64,000 nucleotides of DNA, taken from a virus. Of the stretch, positions 53,849 through 60,298 are shown one piece after another. The position numbers were made by a program, and so were the translations under genes. Position 1 is the stretch's first letter. The number at the start of each line of letters is the position of its first letter. The stretch lies in the IMG/VR virus record IMGVR_UViG_3300025113_000003, positions 28,869 to 92,868 of that record; one strand, given 5' to 3'. The notes beneath the pieces are model-generated. The model was not told where the DNA came from. It did not search any database and saw only the letters and a list, made by a program, of their open reading frames with translations.

Positions 53849-54433
53849 TTACAGGTCCGCTGGAAGCCGATGAAACAGCGCAAACTGCAGGCGGCGGTTG
53901 ATATTCGGGGCAAGCTTCACGAGTAGGTTAGCGGTTAGCCCCACCTGTCGTTCAACGTCATAGCGATCGCGCTGCTGACGCCAGTAGAGGGCTCCAGCCT
54001 GGGTGTAACCAAAGATGACGTCAGACGCTGGGGTATAGAAGCCACGCTCGTCATCAACAACCACTCGGCAACTGGTGACTCCAGTGAAGAGACGCGTAGC
54101 GTAGGCTCCAGCGACGGTGTCAAAGTAGTAGAGGTTGGCACCAGCGGGGCTCTGCCATGCAAGCACGATGCCCATGTTGTTGTCAAAAGCGAGCGACACG
54201 GTTAGCACATCTGGAACTGGGAGACTGAAGGCGACCGCCCCAGCCACTGGAGCCACGGTGATCAGGCCCTCCGAGTAGAGAACTCTCCAGTTCTGATAGT
54301 CACGCCCACGACTTGCGTTACCGATGGCTATCCCGCCAGGAACCGTTTGACGCAGCGGTGCGAATGACTCGTCATACGGTGGGAGAAAAGCCGCTGGATC
54401 TGGTACAGTGGTGAACGTGTTTCCTGGAATCAT
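53849..54433 (-). CDS. Putative tail/virion structural protein
   Basis: GGIAIGNASRG, VSLAFDNNM and LYWRQQRDRY motifs; third gene of a late cluster. Confidence 0.6.
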   Translation of the reverse strand: MIPGNTFTTVPDPAAFLPPYDESFAPLRQTVPGGIAIGNASRGRDYQNWRVLYSEGLITVAPVAGAVAFSLPVPDVLTVSLAFDNNMGIVLAWQSPAGANLYYFDTVAGAYATRLFTGVTSCRVVVDDERGFYTPASDVIFGYTQAGALYWRQQRDRYDVERQVGLTANLLVKLAPNINRRLQFALFHRLPADL

Positions 54434-55362
54434 ACGCGGTTCCAGGAGAAGCGCATCGTGATGCTGAACGTCTTGGTGTTGTCCTTCGGTAGCACTGGAC
54501 TAAGGCTCATCTGGAACGGCATGACGCTGTAGGACTGCGGCCACACGAAGCGCAGGGCTCCTATCCCACCAGTGGCATTGCCTTGCCCAACGCCAAAGCT
54601 GAAGGTTGTATCGCGGTAGTAGGTACCTAGCGTATAGGCGGCCGTGGTAGAGGGGCCACCGCTACCCGACTGCAGAGTAGGAGTTCCGTTAATCGAGCCC
54701 AGCACAGACCCCGCTCCATACGAAGCGAAGCCTGAGGTGGTGTTGTCTGATTTTGAGAAGTTATCTGCGCTGTTGAACAGAAACTGAACAGTAGCGAAGT
54801 TGCTGGCGTTAGAGACGCGAACAACGTAGCTGTAGTCAGTTCCGCTGATGTTGAGAATTCCAGTGGCGTCCCCAAGTGGAGGAAATACCCGGAGGCGGTA
54901 GTAGACCGTCAGCTGATCGATGGCGACCAGCGTGATAGTTGTTGGTGAACCAACCCCATCAAGAATCAAGGCGCGGCTAAAGAGCGTCGCTCCTGTTGCG
55001 CCCCAGCCCACACCGATCTCCGTGATGTTGCCAATCACCGAACCTTGTGTGAAGGTGTATCTCCAGGTGTGCAGCGCCGCATAGGTAGGAGCCCCTTCGT
55101 TGATGCAGGTCTCGGCGTAGTTGGTTGGGTTGGAATTGGCACCTGCAACATAGGATTCCAGAGAGGTCTGCGTTGCTATCGGAGTTCCAGTTCCAGCTCC
55201 CACTTGAGCATACTGGATGAGGATGCTTCCTGCAATTCCTAACCGGTCCAGCCCCTGATTGAGAATGAGATTTGGAAACCAGCCAGTATCCTGTTCGGTA
55301 CCGTCAGGGTGAGTAACTACCAGGCGAAATTCGCCCTGAAGACCGGTGTTGAGCTGCATCAT
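54430..55362 (-). CDS. Putative tail/virion structural protein
   Basis: DTGWFPNLILNQGLD, GNITEIG and LFSRALI motifs; beta-rich. Confidence 0.65.
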   Translation of the reverse strand: MMQLNTGLQGEFRLVVTHPDGTEQDTGWFPNLILNQGLDRLGIAGSILIQYAQVGAGTGTPIATQTSLESYVAGANSNPTNYAETCINEGAPTYAALHTWRYTFTQGSVIGNITEIGVGWGATGATLFSRALILDGVGSPTTITLVAIDQLTVYYRLRVFPPLGDATGILNISGTDYSYVVRVSNASNFATVQFLFNSADNFSKSDNTTSGFASYGAGSVLGSINGTPTLQSGSGGPSTTAAYTLGTYYRDTTFSFGVGQGNATGGIGALRFVWPQSYSVMPFQMSLSPVLPKDNTKTFSITMRFSWNRV

Positions 55363-56314: not shown

Positions 56315-56424
56315 TGCGCTGTCCTCTCAGGTGCAGAAGGCACCTGAGGTATTTAGGACGCTGTAAGCCTAAAGCCGACCCACCACAGGTCGATGCGAGC
56401 AAACCACCTACCGTTGTTGCGCCC

Positions 56425-56455
56425 AAAACCCAGCCGAACCATGCGGTTCGGCTGG
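56425..56455 (-). terminator. Intrinsic terminator after the TROVE gene
   Basis: CCAGCCGAACC-N4-GGTTCGGCTGG 11-bp stem followed by TTTT on the minus strand. Confidence 0.75.
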
Positions 56456-56474
56456 TCCATGACCACCTTGGTGA

Positions 56475-58085
56475 TCACAGGTTGGCGATGATCTGCGGCG
56501 CTGCGCTGTCGAAGCCAGCGATGTCAAGCATGCCGCCGTCCTTCGGGTCAGCGATCGTGAACTCCGACGTCGAGGTGCCGATCACGATGCACTTCGCACC
56601 ACCGTTGAACTGTGCGCGGTAGTCCCGCAGCGCCTGCACCGGCTGGATGCGGCCAGCCCACGTCTCGTTGTCCGTGATGGTCACGAACTTGTCGACGTTC
56701 ATCTTGTGCTGCTTCGCGTGCACCATCGGCAGGGCGCAGTCGGTGCCGCCCCAGCTGAAGCGCTGAATCACCGCCAGGACCTTGTCGAGGCGCATGTTCG
56801 GGCTGATCTTCAGCTCGCCCATGGTCGTGTTGAAGCCGCCGATCCAGTAGTTCGGCTGGTTCTTCACGACCGCCAGCGCCATGACGCCCGCGACCTCAGC
56901 TGCGGTCAGGTTCGGCGAGCCGTTGACCCGCGCGCTGAACATCGAGCCCGAGCAGTCGACGCCCATCAGGTACGAGTCCTGCGTCTTCTCAGCCGTCTCG
57001 AACGCCGCGTAGAACGCGTCGTCCAGTACGTCCACGACGCGCTGCTCCGGCTTCCAGGTCGCCGAGCCCTTCTCGCCGTGGCCGACCGAGTACTGCTTCA
57101 TCGCCTGCAGGATCGTGATCGGGTGAACGCGCTGCTTGCGCAGCGCCTCGCCGTCGCTGATCTTCGCGACCACCAGCTTCGTGCCCTCAGAGAGAGGCGC
57201 GATGATGCCGTGCTGCGTCAGGACGCCCAGCTTGCGGATGACCGCAGTCAGGCCCATGTGCTGCAGGAGGGCCATCATGATGTCCTTGTCCTTCAGCCAC
57301 TGGGTCGGCACCATTTCCCACGTCAGCGCCGCGTTGCCCTCGATGAGGTGCAGCACAGTCAGCTTGTTGTCAGTCCTCTTCAGGTGCTCGAAGTCGACGA
57401 GCAGCTGCGGCACGGCCGCACCGAGCGTCAGCTCCTTGCCCACCGCGTAGCGGAACATGTTCGACTGCACGTCGCTCGACGGCTTCACGTGAGCCAGCCG
57501 CAGCACGTCACGGTGCGCCCAGCCGTTGCGCGACTGGTACTTCAGGAGCTGGAAGGCCAGCTTGTCCATGTCCTTCGACGTGTACCACTTGGCCACACCG
57601 CGCTTCGCCGCCGCGTTCCACTTGCCGAGCGAGTCGAGGATGGAAACGAACAGGAAGAGCCACGTGCCGGTACGGGCGATGCGCGGCAGGGCCTCGAAGG
57701 CGGCGACCTTAGTCGCCTCGTCGCCAAACACCGCCGCGAGGGCGATGGTCACGACCGCCGGGTCGTTCTTCGGCGCGCGGCCGGCCAGCGAGTACTCGAG
57801 AGCCCGAGCCACGACGCGGGCGCCGTCTGCCTTCAGGCAGGACTTGACGGTGTCGAAGGACTGCTTGGTGATGTCGCGCTCACCGACGTAGTAGTTGCCC
57901 CCTTCGGAGCCGATCATCAGGAAGCGGTCGAGCACGCCCCACTGGTCGAGCGTGAAGGTCACGCCGCCGGCGTTGTTGCGCTTCATGTCAGCCTCACGGC
58001 CCGGGATTGCCTGGGACTGCGGGGTCACAGCCTTGGACGGCTTGGCGGTGGTTGCACCGGCGAAATCAGCGTATACGTTCGACAT
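56475..58085 (-). CDS. rsr: Ro60/TROVE-domain RNA-binding protein (Rsr-like)
   Basis: NNAGG, LDRFLMIGSEGG.YY, KYQSRNGWAHRDVLRLAH, HPITIL; vWA DCSGSM, GGTDCALPM, TDNETW and GFDS. Confidence 0.95.
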   Translation of the reverse strand: MSNVYADFAGATTAKPSKAVTPQSQAIPGREADMKRNNAGGVTFTLDQWGVLDRFLMIGSEGGNYYVGERDITKQSFDTVKSCLKADGARVVARALEYSLAGRAPKNDPAVVTIALAAVFGDEATKVAAFEALPRIARTGTWLFLFVSILDSLGKWNAAAKRGVAKWYTSKDMDKLAFQLLKYQSRNGWAHRDVLRLAHVKPSSDVQSNMFRYAVGKELTLGAAVPQLLVDFEHLKRTDNKLTVLHLIEGNAALTWEMVPTQWLKDKDIMMALLQHMGLTAVIRKLGVLTQHGIIAPLSEGTKLVVAKISDGEALRKQRVHPITILQAMKQYSVGHGEKGSATWKPEQRVVDVLDDAFYAAFETAEKTQDSYLMGVDCSGSMFSARVNGSPNLTAAEVAGVMALAVVKNQPNYWIGGFNTTMGELKISPNMRLDKVLAVIQRFSWGGTDCALPMVHAKQHKMNVDKFVTITDNETWAGRIQPVQALRDYRAQFNGGAKCIVIGTSTSEFTIADPKDGGMLDIAGFDSAAPQIIANL

Positions 58086-58135
58086 GTCTGGTTCTCCTTA
58101 TGAGCGGCTGTCATTGACAGCAAGTTGTCCGTCGG

Positions 58136-58434
58136 CCTCAACGAGCGGCCAAAAAGGCGGGGTCGGGAATTTTCAGCACTACCCGATGGACGTGTTTCCA
58201 CGCTTGACCCACAAGACAGCACCTACACCAGTTGATTCAGCCATACTGGTACCCTATGAGCTATTCGACGCTCCAACGTCCATCATTTTCGGCGATGACG
58301 AGCTTATCCAGATCTTGAGGTTATCTGGCACCCTCCTAACTGGCCCGGCTTGTCTTTCAACTTGCGTAGGTAGTCAGGGTCCTTACGGTCACTTTGAAGT
58401 AGATAACCAACTCCAAGCGGGCCGTTCGTTGAGG
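58136..58434 (-). ncRNA. Large (~300 nt) Y-RNA-like ncRNA
   Basis: Ends pair (CCUCAACGA-A-CGGCC / GGCCG-C-UCGUUGAGG); UGGUUAUC motif; multiple internal hairpins; lies directly upstream of Ro60. Confidence 0.65.
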
Positions 58435-58446
58435 TTACGGAATTTT

Positions 58447-58574
58447 GACTGGGTTGAGAGGGGGAACAAAGAGTGCCACGGAAATGGAAGGCATCGCGAG
58501 ACCTTGCCAGCTGGTTACACCCACGAGGGGTGGCAGTGCTTAGGATAACCATGAGCGATCGGTTCCAACCAATC
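58447..58574 (-). ncRNA. Y RNA (Ro60-binding), ~128 nt
   Basis: GGAAC-C(bulge)-GA pairs with UUGUUCC, the Y-RNA bulged-C helix; UGGUUAUC; outer GAUUGGUUG/CAACCCAGUC. Confidence 0.75.
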
Positions 58575-58602
58575 GTTGCATCGATTACTCGATGCATGTG
58601 CT

Positions 58603-58632
58603 ATTTTATAGCAGGGGGCGAAAACTGTACAA
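58603..58632 (-). promoter_or_regulatory. Sigma70-like promoter for the Y RNA-Ro60 operon
   Basis: Minus strand TTGTAC...TATAAAAT followed by a leader hairpin TGCATCGA-N4-TCGATGCA. Confidence 0.6.
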
Positions 58633-58639
58633 CAAATTA

Positions 58640-59197
58640 TCAGGTTGAAGCTCGGCTGTAGATCGCCCCGCTGAGAAGCGCGCAGATCTTTCCTTCGTTG
58701 CTCGGCATCTCCCAGTCGCCGTCGGCGTCCTTGGTAGCGATTGATTCAAAGACGAAGCGCTCCACCTTCTTGGAGTGGGGGTCCCACATCTCAATCCATT
58801 CGTGCAGGTCAGTTCCATCGTAGGTGCCAACCTTCTCCTCTGAGACGCGTCGAACCACAGAGACCCCAAGTCCTGAGTTGGTGATCAGGTGATCCAGCTC
58901 CTCGTCGCTGGGCATCAGCCCCTCTTCTTCGATGTTACGCTGCAGCTTCGAGAGAGCGTCGACCTTCATCAGCGTCTCAAGCACGCCGGTAGAGAGAACG
59001 TCGGTTAGGTGGCTAGCGACCATGATAAGCGCCGCCTGGTAGCTGAGCACGCAGTAGACAGGAATAAGCAGCAGCCACCAACCTGTCAGTACCACCCAAA
59101 GCGGCAGTGACACAAGAACGGCTTGAACTGCCCAGGCAGCTCGCGCCAAAGAAACAGCTCTGTCAATCCTTTGGCTGAGATCAACAGAGATCTTCAC
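58640..59197 (-). CDS. Membrane-anchored hypothetical protein
   Basis: N-terminal TM segments; coupled ORF. Confidence 0.55.
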   Translation of the reverse strand: MKISVDLSQRIDRAVSLARAAWAVQAVLVSLPLWVVLTGWWLLLIPVYCVLSYQAALIMVASHLTDVLSTGVLETLMKVDALSKLQRNIEEEGLMPSDEELDHLITNSGLGVSVVRRVSEEKVGTYDGTDLHEWIEMWDPHSKKVERFVFESIATKDADGDWEMPSNEGKICALLSGAIYSRAST

Positions 59198-59213: not shown

Positions 59214-59801
59214 TCACTGCGCCGTCTGAAGGTGCTTCCAGACCCGGCTGTGCTCTGGGATGAACGACTTGAGGTAGTCCATCTGGCAGCCGAGGATCAC
59301 GCGGTTCTCCAGGACCAGCGCCTCCGCCCGGTTGGGGGCGTACGGCACGTACAGGAGCTGCATGCCCACCTCGTCGAGCATGTGGTCGTCTTTCTTGTGG
59401 TTGCACCGCTCGCATGCCGTGACGCAGTTCGCCCACTTGTCGATGCCACCCTTCGACCGAGGGGTGACGTGGTCGCGCGTGAGGTGCAGCTCCTTGAAGA
59501 TGCCACCGCAGTACGCGCACATGTAGTGGTCACGCCGGAACAGCTCACGGTTGGTCAGGGCCGGCGGCTTGTGCATCCGCTTGGCCGCCGCCGATTCGCC
59601 CTTGACAGCGATGATCGGAGCCGTGATGATGCGCGACTGGGTACCCGTGATGCGGTTCTCACCGCCGCGGAACAGCACGTCACCATCGCCTTCACCCAGC
59701 TGCCAGGCGACGAGGCCCTTGGCGTGGTAGACGATTGCGGTCTCGTGCGACACCCACCGGTGGGGCGTGCCGCCGGCGTCAAGTGTGAGAATTCTGCTCA
59801 T
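59214..59801 (-). CDS. HNH endonuclease (McrA-like)
   Basis: LFRRDHYMCAYCG, TRDHVTPRSKGG and NCVTACERCNHKK motifs. Confidence 0.9.
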   Translation of the reverse strand: MSRILTLDAGGTPHRWVSHETAIVYHAKGLVAWQLGEGDGDVLFRGGENRITGTQSRIITAPIIAVKGESAAAKRMHKPPALTNRELFRRDHYMCAYCGGIFKELHLTRDHVTPRSKGGIDKWANCVTACERCNHKKDDHMLDEVGMQLLYVPYAPNRAEALVLENRVILGCQMDYLKSFIPEHSRVWKHLQTAQ

Positions 59802-60244
59802 GATACCTTCCTTTCTAGTTCTTCTACGAACCGAACGTGGTCCTTTCTACCCTTTGTTCTGAAGCTTTCCAGCGTCATCCAGGTGGTGAACTCAGTTTCG
59901 TCACACCACTTGTCAAAGTCATATCGATCTTGGATCTCTACCCCGAAGACGTACAGCACGTACGCACAGGAGTAGAGCTCGATTCTACCGTCAAACACCT
60001 CTAGGATGTTCCCTCGCAGGTTGCGCTGCTTGAGCCCGAGTTCCTCCTCGGCTTCACGCAGGGCACAGCTCAGCGGGGTCTCACCTTCTTCAATCTTTCC
60101 CTTCGAAATCATCGGACGCGGGCCGCCAAACTTCGGGTCGGACGCCACCATCATCAGGTAGCGCAGCTGCCCATCCTCCCCACGGAGGAAGGGGATCAAC
60201 CCGGCGCGCGGGTCCTTCTCGTAGTTGTCTTCTTCGCGTTGCAT
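59798..60244 (-). CDS. Nudix hydrolase
   Basis: KGKIEEGETPLSCALREAEEELG Nudix box; likely start MQREED. Confidence 0.9.
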   Translation of the reverse strand: MQREEDNYEKDPRAGLIPFLRGEDGQLRYLMMVASDPKFGGPRPMISKGKIEEGETPLSCALREAEEELGLKQRNLRGNILEVFDGRIELYSCAYVLYVFGVEIQDRYDFDKWCDETEFTTWMTLESFRTKGRKDHVRFVEELERKVS

Positions 60245-60298
60245 GGTGTATTGTATCACAGTCCTTAGGTTGAATACACTGCCAACCTGTAACAGCAA

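What the first reader, a model, noticed from the sequence alone, without database searches (positions are those of the whole stretch)
56425..58632. Phage operon encoding Ro60 together with two tandem Y-like RNAs
Seen: promoter (~58603-58632) -> leader hairpin -> 128 nt RNA -> ~300 nt RNA -> AAGGAG RBS -> Ro60/TROVE -> strong terminator. Both RNAs pair their 5' and 3' ends, share UGGUUAUC, and form an upper stem ending at its GG (GCUCAUGG/CCGUGGC; GGAGUUGG/CCGACCCC). RNA1 has the bulged-C Ro-binding helix GGAAC-C-GA/UUGUUCC. Established: bacterial Rsr/Y RNA complexes tether effectors such as PNPase, and YrlA RNAs mimic tRNA. Neither RNA here shows the tRNA T-loop (GUUCGAAUC), so their effector domains appear to be different. 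Inference: a phage RNP that remodels or decoys host RNA decay or anti-phage RNases.
Basis: partly seen in the sequence, partly recalled or inferred. Interest (0 to 1): 0.8.

Follow-up and report, generated by a model that had tools for sequence, protein, structure and literature searches.

The report
Giant-phage Ro60 operon, two Y RNAs
An uncultured giant phage carries a gene for the ring-shaped RNA-binding protein Ro60 preceded by two conserved folded RNAs that have the stem by which Y RNAs hold Ro60; this kind of phage operon is already known, but these RNAs lack the usual tRNA-like part and one carries a large, undescribed domain.

Summary
Window 56475-58085 (minus strand) encodes a canonical full-length Ro60. 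The 555-nt non-coding leader before it is conserved in 13 related uncultured phage contigs. It holds a promoter-like site, a 5' hairpin, RNA1 (~130 nt, 58575-58446), RNA2 (~299 nt, 58434-58136), a hairpin before the ribosome-binding site, and AAGGAG.

Both RNAs show heavy compensatory covariation: 13 of 20 and 25 of 37 pairs changed on both sides, and 0 of 500 shuffles reached the observed values. Both share one module: closing stem, invariant bulged C (AC[C]G / U(U/C)GU), upper stem, then GGUUAYC. I found the same module two or three times upstream of Ro60 in actinophages, and its layout matches nematode sbRNA and human Y4.

No tRNA-like module is detectable with Rfam or a custom model. A metatranscriptome contig (>99% identical) covers only RNA2.

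One correction: the "strong terminator" is a hairpin inside a conserved 35-aa ORF.

Tandem Y RNAs before Ro60 are published for mycobacteria, 22 phages and Thermus phage phiLo, and this scan has reported phage Ro60-like RNA arrays on other DNA. So this is a new variant of a known kind. The function (an RNP that recruits a host exoribonuclease) is inferred.

The parts
58603..58632 (-). Promoter-like site (TGTACA, 17 nt, TAAAAT)
   Evidence: Consensus scan, 9/12 matches. The -10 TAnAAT is kept in all relatives; the -35 TGTAC only in the nearest ones. Not experimentally mapped.
58578..58595 (-). 5' leader hairpin GCAUCGA-GUAA-UCGAUGC
   Evidence: Same position in all relatives, with different but complementary arms.
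58446..58575 (-). RNA1, a Y-like RNA of ~130 nt: outer stem CGAUUGG/CCAGUCA, middle stem GGAAC[C]GA/UUGUUCC, upper stem, GGUUAUC (58550-58544), multibranch loop
   Evidence: 20 pairs, 93% paired, 13 with double changes, 0/500 shuffles. Single-sequence folds converge. Model R1 finds it in every relative, including L004, which was not used to build the model (E 3e-33).
58136..58434 (-). RNA2, a Y-like RNA of ~299 nt: 15-bp closing stem (extendable to 58440/58129), bulged C 58419, upper stem UGGAGUUGG/CCGACCCCG, GGUUAUC (58408-58402), ~230-nt multi-helix domain including the T-loop-like hairpin 58273-58258
   Evidence: 37 pairs, 90% paired, 25 with double changes, 0/500 shuffles. Further helices and folds. 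One 266-nt contig of an RNA library, >99% identical, covers 58156-58421 only.
58107..58121 (-). Hairpin GCUGUC-AAU-GACAGC just before the ribosome-binding site
   Evidence: Conserved with compensatory changes (GCUGCA../..UGCAGC, GCUAUC../GAUAGC).
58094..58099 (-). Shine-Dalgarno AAGGAG
   Evidence: Read directly; 8 nt before the ATG.
56475..58085 (-). Ro60 (TROVE + vWA) gene, 536 aa
   Evidence: Pfam PF05731 4e-25 and PF25045 1e-52. D. radiodurans Rsr 2nvo E 2e-104, human Ro60 5e-102. phrog_850.
56422..56455 (-).
   Evidence: -22.9 kcal/mol. Arms covary among relatives through synonymous codon changes. Lies inside the small ORF. Its role as terminator, attenuator or 3' stabiliser is undecided.
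56353..56460 (-). Conserved 35-aa ORF directly after Ro60 (function unknown)
   Evidence: phrog_38838 E 3e-7. Third-position changes among relatives. AAGGUGG 5 nt before its ATG.

Best explanation
This is a phage Ro60 ribonucleoprotein operon. One promoter drives a transcript of about 2.2 kb. Its 555-nt leader contains two Y-type non-coding RNAs, followed by the Ro60 mRNA.

Shown: the leader is non-coding and conserved, and it folds into RNA1 and RNA2. Each RNA closes its 5' and 3' ends into a stem carrying the same module: AC, an invariant bulged C, G, an internal loop, an 8-bp upper stem, then GGUUAYC. The protein is a canonical Ro60.

Inferred: host RNases release the two RNAs, as in M. smegmatis, where YrlA and YrlB come from one precursor. 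The flanking hairpins protect the transcript 5' end and the processed Ro60 mRNA. Ro60 binds the bulged helix of each RNA. The variable parts (a ~60-100-nt multiloop in RNA1, a ~230-nt multi-helix domain in RNA2) then act as adaptors that gate the Ro60 ring and tether it to a partner.

The most likely partner is a host 3'-5' exoribonuclease such as PNPase, so that structured host or phage RNA is degraded or trimmed during infection. Two different RNAs would give two particle types with different partners or substrates.
For: - Ro60 identity. The human K170, R174 and H187 equivalents and the MIDAS DxSxS are kept (the roles of these residues are from my own memory).
- The leader is conserved in 13 relatives whose Ro60 is 66-84% identical, with no conserved ORF.
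- Covariation: (0/500 shuffles on all five measures; slid controls 36-57% paired against 90-93%).
- The shared module in both RNAs is tabulated.
- The pattern CCG-N9-10-GGTTAYC clusters upstream of Ro60. It accounts for 2 of 3 hits in the 92.9-kb record of this phage, 3 of 5 in Catera (154 kb) and 2 of 2 in BearBQ (55 kb). It also occurs in the Forza Ro60 locus (downstream of the gene) and upstream of Ro60 in Karimac; one Forza copy and modules in Catera and BearBQ adjoin an Rfam YrlA hit.
- The nematode sbRNA model RF01656 hits the BearBQ modules.
- Precedents: PMC4201824 (YrlA and YrlB processed from one precursor upstream of rsr; 22 phages) and PMC12135203 (phiLo Ro60 binds two upstream Y-like RNAs and forms a complex with host PNPase).
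- RNA library contig on RNA2 only.
Against: - No Rfam Y_RNA, YrlA or sbRNA model matches the window even at E<=10.
- The bacterial motif GNCGAAN0-1G is not met exactly: RNA1 has ACCGAUCG, RNA2 has ACCGCUUG.
- No binding, processing or transcript-end data exist.
- The RNA evidence is one low-depth contig (depth 4) from one study, and contigs cannot show ends or strand.
- No PNPase, RtcB or other partner gene lies nearby, and the record is only about 26% of the genome.
- In actinophages the CCGA...UCGG stretch can also form a local hairpin, so the module may fold differently there.
Confidence: 0.75

Rival explanations
1. RNA-repair or counter-defence platform. The Ro60-Y RNA particle works with RNA repair enzymes, or as a decoy, to deal with RNA cut by host anti-phage ribonucleases (for example anticodon nucleases), rather than recruiting an exoribonuclease.
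For: In Salmonella, rsr and its Y RNAs sit in the rtcBA RNA-repair operon (PMC7790460, listed). The jumbo-phage survey calls TROVE proteins a platform for RNA repair with a tRNA-like partner (PMC7824862). This phage record encodes a T4 Rnl1-type RNA ligase (G000:18762-19370, E 2e-24).
Against: The ligase lies about 68 kb away, not in the operon. No RtcB or Rnl2 is present in the record. The RNAs lack the tRNA-like module that would make a tRNA decoy or sensor plausible.
Confidence: 0.2
2. The leader is mainly a cis-acting structured 5' UTR. Ro60 binds its own leader to autoregulate translation or stability, and no stable trans-acting RNAs are released.
For: The RNAs and Ro60 share one promoter-like site, with no detectable promoter or terminator between them. 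A conserved hairpin sits right before the ribosome-binding site.
Against: In L004 a GIY-YIG-type ORF of about 235 aa separates the RNAs from Ro60, yet both RNAs are intact. The RNA-library contig covers RNA2 but not the coding region. In M. smegmatis the same layout is processed into discrete Rsr-bound RNAs (PMC4201824).
Confidence: 0.1
3. RNA2 is an independent large non-coding RNA with its own function or protein partner. It merely uses a Y-like closing stem for processing or stability and is co-transcribed with Ro60.
For: Its 230-nt domain is over twice the size of usual Y RNA loops, has at least 7 conserved helices and matches no Rfam family. The RNA contig covers RNA2 alone.
Against: RNA2 carries the same AC[C]G...GGUUAYC / CC..CC..U(U/C)GU module, with the same spacing as RNA1. 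It is found upstream of Ro60, in the same order, in all 14 loci.
Confidence: 0.1

Closest known systems
Actinobacterial and actinophage rsr loci with tandem YrlA/YrlB (M. smegmatis; mycobacteriophages such as Catera/Bxz1; Chen et al. 2014, PMC4201824)
   Same: Two or more Y RNAs lie directly upstream of Ro60 on the same strand and are processed from one precursor in M. smegmatis. The same CCG-N9-10-GGUUAYC 5' arm is present.
   Different: There, at least one RNA carries a T-arm/D-arm tRNA mimic detected by Rfam YrlA. Here none is detectable. RNA2 has a 230-nt domain without counterpart. Ro60 is only 38-40% identical, and the leader shows no DNA similarity to any deposited phage.
Thermus phage phiLo Ro60 with Yrl1 and Yrl2 (PMC12135203, 2025)
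   Same: A phage operon with two Y-like RNAs upstream of Ro60. There, binding to Ro60 and a ternary complex with host PNPase were shown in vitro.
   Different: The phiLo protein is a very divergent TROVE protein (E 6e-5 to this one), whereas this one is canonical. The phiLo RNAs were defined by a CGAA motif. I did not compare the phiLo RNA sequences.
Deinococcus radiodurans Rsr-Yrn1-PNPase (RYPER)
   Same: It is the closest solved protein (2nvo, E 2e-104). Both strands of the metazoan-type Ro-binding helix are retained in its Y RNAs (PMC4201824), as here.
   Different: Yrn1 has tRNA-like features and a mapped PNPase-binding region. No such region can be assigned here.
Metazoan Y RNAs and nematode stem-bulge RNAs (Rfam RF00019, RF01656; PMC4726728)
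   Same: Same order and spacing: lower stem, bulged C, G(A), about 9 nt of upper-stem 5' strand, GGUUAUC, and on the 3' side an upper stem, about 5 nt, then UUG. Compare the sbRNA consensus and the human Y4 5' fragment in PMC5331234. The UUAUC motif is conserved in sbRNAs and vertebrate Y RNAs.
   Different: No covariance-model match to the window. These RNAs are cut from an operon transcript rather than Pol III products, and the loops are much larger. Whether the resemblance is homology or convergence on the same Ro60 surface is open.

Membership tests
Y RNA (Ro60-associated non-coding RNA, functional class) | Encoded next to a Ro60 orthologue | tested here: met
   RNA1 and RNA2 lie 50-490 nt upstream of Ro60 on the same strand in 13 of the 14 loci; in L004 a homing-endonuclease-like ORF of about 700 nt lies between RNA2 and Ro60.
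Y RNA (Ro60-associated non-coding RNA, functional class) | 5' and 3' ends pair into a long stem enclosing a variable loop or module | tested here: met
   Covariation counts; single-sequence folds.
Y RNA (Ro60-associated non-coding RNA, functional class) | Conserved helix with a bulged C on the 5' strand (metazoan GGUC[C]GA / UUGACC) | tested here: met
   RNA1 has AC[C]GA / UUGU and RNA2 has AC[C]G / U(U/C)GU in nearly all 12 aligned sequences each; the bulged C is invariant in the 12 aligned RNA1. This is a motif-level comparison, not a model score.
Y RNA (Ro60-associated non-coding RNA, functional class) | Bacterial 5'-strand motif GNCGAAN0-1G (Chen et al. 2014) | tested here: not met
   RNA1 reads ACCGAUCG and RNA2 reads ACCGCUUG. 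Only the CCG(A) core is shared.
Y RNA (Ro60-associated non-coding RNA, functional class) | Physically bound and stabilised by Ro60 | not testable with these tools
   Needs pull-down or EMSA.
YrlA (Rfam RF02553) | Match to the covariance model | tested here: not met
   No hit at gathering score or at E<=10. Positive controls Catera, BearBQ, Forza and MeganTheeKilla give E 7.5e-5 to 2e-11 or weaker.
YrlA (Rfam RF02553) | tRNA-like module (T arm, acceptor-like stem, D arm) | tested here: not met
   ARAGORN found none. Custom model R2 of four actinophage modules gives no hit in any RNA1 or RNA2 at E<=10. Only a loosely T-loop-like hairpin is present at 58273-58258.
Metazoan Y_RNA / nematode sbRNA (RF00019, RF01656) | Match to the covariance model | tested here: not met
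   No hit in the window. RF01656 hits only the BearBQ modules, at E 0.015-0.024.
Metazoan Y_RNA / nematode sbRNA (RF00019, RF01656) | UUAUC motif directly after the upper-stem 5' strand | tested here: met
   GGUUAYC in 11/12 RNA1 and 12/12 RNA2. The motif is described in PMC4726728.
Ro60 / TROVE protein | TROVE (HEAT-repeat ring) plus C-terminal vWA domain, full length | tested here: met
   Pfam. End-to-end alignment to 2nvo, 9nen and 1yvp.
Ro60 / TROVE protein | MIDAS DxSxS, and the basic and His residues used for Y RNA and misfolded-RNA binding | tested here: met
   DCSGSM aligns with human DVSASM. The K...R and H of KYQSRNGWAHRDVLRLAH align with human K170, R174 and H187. The roles of these residues are recalled from the literature, not checked here.
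Intrinsic terminator | GC-rich hairpin followed by a U run, outside coding sequence | tested here: inconclusive
   The hairpin is strong (-22.9 kcal/mol) but has only 4 U and lies inside a conserved ORF.

The most novel reading that the evidence does not exclude
The module shared by RNA1, RNA2 and the actinophage Y RNAs (bulged-C helix, about 9 nt, GGUUAYC) is the same element as in vertebrate Y RNAs and nematode sbRNAs. That would make phage/bacterial and metazoan Y RNAs homologous, contrary to the published view that they are not (PMC4726728), and would make UUAUC part of an ancient Ro60-linked function rather than a eukaryote-specific replication motif. In addition, RNA2 would be a new class of 'giant' Y RNA whose 230-nt domain recruits a partner other than PNPase.
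Probability: 0.25. Interest if true: 0.75.

Novelty: new variant of a known kind. Interest (0 to 1): 0.55.

Why it matters
Ro60-Y RNA particles are studied mostly in animals (lupus and Sjogren autoantigen) and in three bacteria; what they do for phages is open.

This clade offers a canonical Ro60, 35-40% identical to the human protein, with two RNAs whose Ro-binding stem is well defined by covariation. Their adaptor parts are not tRNA mimics. That makes a clean system to ask what a Y RNA adaptor domain recruits.

The GGUUAYC motif is shared from phages to human Y RNAs. This gives a direct, testable handle on whether the motif serves Ro60 biology and whether the RNA families share ancestry.

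RNA2 also adds a large conserved structured RNA that is absent from Rfam.

Tried and rejected
- Rfam at gathering score on the whole window, and at E<=10 on 58000-58750 and on RNA1 alone: no relevant hit. The only match, snoPyro_CD on the opposite strand at E 5, is chance.
- blastn of the leader against 50,697 phage records: no match.
- Model R1 (RNA1) does not detect RNA2 or the actinophage modules, because the loop positions dominate the score. The shared module therefore had to be shown by motif tables.
- Custom tRNA-like model R2: nothing in this clade.
- The pseudoknot ACCUAC/GUAGGU proposed in a sister note is 79% paired, with only one pair changed on both sides. UGUAGG is invariant while its proposed partner diverges in distant relatives, so it is inconclusive.
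- A coding reading of the leader (97-aa ORF 58304-58597): rejected. No Pfam hit, and no ORF conserved in frame or position.
- The genome-contig scan gave only one 2.3-kb contig binned to a cyanobacterial MAG. This is probably a mis-binned phage fragment and says nothing about the host.
- DNA runs X2, X4 and X5 hold only diverged relatives of the Ro60 gene; I draw no habitat conclusion.
- The ends of the RNA contig are not taken as RNA ends.
- The 2020 Annual Review on bacterial Ro60 (PMC10870794) and Burroughs & Aravind 2016 were not available to read.
Full report
**What is there.** On the minus strand, 58085-56475 is a 536-aa ORF with Pfam TROVE (4e-25) and Ro60-type vWA (1e-52) domains. It aligns end to end with D. 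radiodurans Rsr (2nvo, E 2e-104), human Ro60 (9nen, 5e-102) and Xenopus Ro60 (1yvp, 4e-95). It aligns only weakly with the Thermus phage phiLo protein (6e-5). The MIDAS DxSxS is kept. So are the residues aligned with human K170, R174 and H187, which I recall from the literature as needed for binding Y RNA and misfolded RNA. The window belongs to a 92.9-kb virus record estimated at 26% complete, from a groundwater sample; it is a fragment of a large uncultured phage. Tail-fibre genes lie downstream. An unknown gene, an HNH endonuclease, a NUDIX hydrolase and a saccharopine-dehydrogenase-like gene lie upstream.

**The leader is a conserved non-coding RNA region.** The 555 nt between the upstream gene and the Ro60 ATG has no match in 50,697 deposited phage genomes. 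Ro60 itself finds 367 phage records, at 40% identity or less. IMG/VR, metagenome and genome scans gave 13 further distinct loci whose Ro60 is 66-84% identical and which keep the upstream DNA. All 13 carry the same leader in the same order. No ORF is conserved in frame or position, and one relative has none of 40 aa or more. The elements, with coordinates checked, are:

| Element | Window coordinates (minus strand) |
|---|---|
| -35/-10-like site | 58632-58603 |
| 5' leader hairpin | 58595-58578 |
| RNA1 | 58575-58446 |
| RNA2 | 58434-58136 |
| Hairpin before the ribosome-binding site | 58121-58107 |
| AAGGAG | 58099-58094 |

The two flanking hairpins keep their position while their arms change in a complementary way.

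**Structure statistics.**
- RNA1 (12 sequences, 20 pairs): 93% of cells are paired and 13 pairs have changes on both sides. None of 500 shuffles reaches the observed value on any of five measures. Sliding the partners by 1-3 columns drops pairing to 36-57%.
- RNA2 (37 pairs): 90% paired and 25 pairs with double changes, again 0/500; slid controls give 36-42%. Additional helices are partly supported.
- Minimum-free-energy folds of single sequences converge on the same RNA1 architecture. This includes an outer stem that covaries (GAUUGG/CCAGUC, GAAUGA/UCAUUC, GAACGG/CCGUUC). They also converge on a 13-18-bp closing stem for RNA2.
- A covariance model of RNA1 finds one copy in every relative at E 1e-16 to 1e-36. 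In L004, which was not used to build the model, it scores E 3e-33. There the RNAs lie about 1 kb upstream because a GIY-YIG-type homing-endonuclease ORF is inserted between RNA2 and Ro60.

**Why these are Y-type RNAs.** Both RNAs carry one module:
- 5' arm: N-A-C-[C]-G-(A/C)-U-N-G-G-N3-4-GGUUAYC
- 3' arm: CC-N3-CC, 4-5 nt, U-(U/C)-G-U-N

A-U and C-G pairs flank a C that is bulged and invariant in the 12 aligned RNA1 sequences. This is the layout of the Ro60-binding helix of animal Y RNAs (GGUC[C]GA/UUGACC), with one pair flipped.

The pattern CCG-N9-10-GGTTAYC occurs three times in this 92.9-kb record, and two of those are RNA1 and RNA2. In mycobacteriophage Catera it occurs five times in 154 kb, three of them in tandem within 300 nt upstream of Ro60. 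In Gordonia phage BearBQ it occurs twice, both upstream of Ro60. It is also in the Ro60 loci of Forza (downstream of the gene, among its tRNA genes) and Karimac (upstream). In Catera, BearBQ and Forza one such module encloses or directly precedes an Rfam YrlA hit. This ties the motif to a family whose M. smegmatis members were shown to bind Rsr (PMC4201824).

The Rfam nematode sbRNA model hits both BearBQ modules. Its consensus shows the same order and spacing (GGUCCGG, 9 nt, GGUUAUC ... UUGACCG). The human Y4 5' fragment printed in PMC5331234 does too. Kowalski and Krude describe UUAUC as conserved in sbRNAs and vertebrate Y RNAs, and state that bacterial Y RNAs are not homologous to them. 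In the searchable library I found no mention of this motif in bacterial or phage Y RNAs.

**What they are not.** No Rfam family matches the window at gathering score. At E<=10 no Y_RNA, YrlA, sbRNA or tRNA model matches. ARAGORN finds no tRNA. A model I built from four actinophage tRNA-like modules finds nothing in any RNA1 or RNA2. RNA2 does have a covarying hairpin with a UCGAA-containing loop, preceded by GUU and followed by a stem and UAG. This is loosely reminiscent of the YrlA order, but the evidence is insufficient to call it a tRNA mimic.

**Expression hint.** Of the public runs that hold parts of this stretch, one is a metatranscriptome. Its only near-identical contig is 266 nt with 2 mismatches. 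It lies entirely within RNA2 (58156-58421), and nothing near-identical falls on RNA1 or the 1.6-kb coding region. This is one study at depth about 4, and contigs show neither ends nor strand. Still, uniform DNA or mRNA coverage would not be expected to give this pattern. RNA1, at 130 nt, may be lost in standard libraries.

**The 3' end.** The hairpin at 56455-56430 is strong (-22.9 kcal/mol) but is followed by only GUUUUGGG. It lies in codons 2-11 of a 35-aa ORF (56460-56353) that has its own Shine-Dalgarno and matches phrog_38838 (E 3e-7). Among relatives this ORF changes mostly at third codon positions, and the hairpin arms stay complementary through synonymous changes. Relatives that lack this hairpin have classical terminators right after Ro60. 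It may be a partial terminator or a 3' stabiliser; that is undecided.

**Mechanism and rivals.** By analogy with published systems, the best reading is an RNP in which Ro60 binds the bulged helix and the variable domains act as adaptors. The published systems are Rsr-Y RNA-PNPase in Deinococcus, YrlA/YrlB processing in M. smegmatis, and phiLo Ro60-Yrl-PNPase complexes (PMC4201824, PMC12135203). The most likely partner is a host exoribonuclease.
- An RNA-repair or counter-defence role is the main functional rival. The record encodes a T4 Rnl1-type ligase, but 68 kb away, and no RtcB or Rnl2. The jumbo-phage survey links TROVE proteins to repair.
- A purely cis-regulatory leader is made less likely by the L004 insertion and the RNA contig.
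- An independent function for RNA2 is made less likely by the shared module.

**Novelty.** Phage Ro60 genes with upstream Y-like RNAs are published, and this scan has reported Ro60-like RNA arrays in other phages. New here are:
- a clade of at least 14 large uncultured phages with a canonical Ro60;
- two covariation-defined Y RNAs without a tRNA-like module;
- a 299-nt Y RNA with an undescribed multi-helix domain of about 230 nt;
- the observation that GGUUAYC and its spacing are shared by this clade, actinophage Y RNAs, sbRNAs and human Y RNAs.

I class this as a new variant of a known kind.

Noticed in passing
window 56353-56460 (-): A conserved 35-aa ORF (MDQPNRMVRLGFGRNNGRWFARIDLWWVGFRLTAS) lies directly after Ro60. 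It matches phrog_38838 (unknown function), and a covarying RNA hairpin is embedded in its first codons. It is present in most relatives, including L016, which lacks the hairpin part.
   Followed up: partly
L004:2300-3000 (+): In one relative a GIY-YIG-type homing-endonuclease-like ORF of about 235 aa is inserted between RNA2 and Ro60. RNA1 (1765-1940) and RNA2 remain intact.
   Followed up: partly
L002 (Mycobacterium phage Catera) 2597-2945: There are three tandem Y-like modules upstream of Ro60, each with GGCCGA, 9-10 nt, then GGUUAYC. Only the middle one is recognised by Rfam YrlA. None is annotated in the record.
   Followed up: partly
L031 (Gordonia phage Forza) 4016-4083 and 4220-4345: A feature annotated tRNA-Gln (68 nt) contains the Y-module motif CCGAAGCUGAUUCGGUUACC. 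A YrlA hit (E 2e-11) follows a second such motif, among the tRNA genes downstream of Ro60. The tRNA-Gln annotation may be a Y-like RNA.
   Followed up: no
G000:C1:18762-19370 (-), outside the window: The same phage record encodes a T4 Rnl1-type RNA ligase (PF09511, E 2e-24). No RtcB or Rnl2 was found in the 92.9-kb fragment.
   Followed up: partly
window 59214-59801 (-) and 59798-60298 (-): An HNH endonuclease and a NUDIX hydrolase lie two and three genes upstream of the Ro60 operon. The NUDIX could act on RNA 5' ends, but this was not examined.
   Followed up: no
window 58598-58613 (-) and the same site in relatives: The -10 region is partly palindromic: GCTATAAAATAGC here and AGTGTACAATACACT in L007. 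This could be an operator or chance.
   Followed up: no
L035 (JBBIQC010000584.1): A 2.3-kb contig binned into an Oscillatoriales cyanobacterium MAG carries the same leader and Ro60 (84% identical). In its RNA1 the motif reads GGUUAUU. It is probably a phage fragment binned by mistake.
   Followed up: no
window 53849-55362 (-): Two tail-fibre genes (phrog_4176, phrog_4950) lie shortly downstream, so the Ro60 operon sits next to a structural gene block.
   Followed up: no
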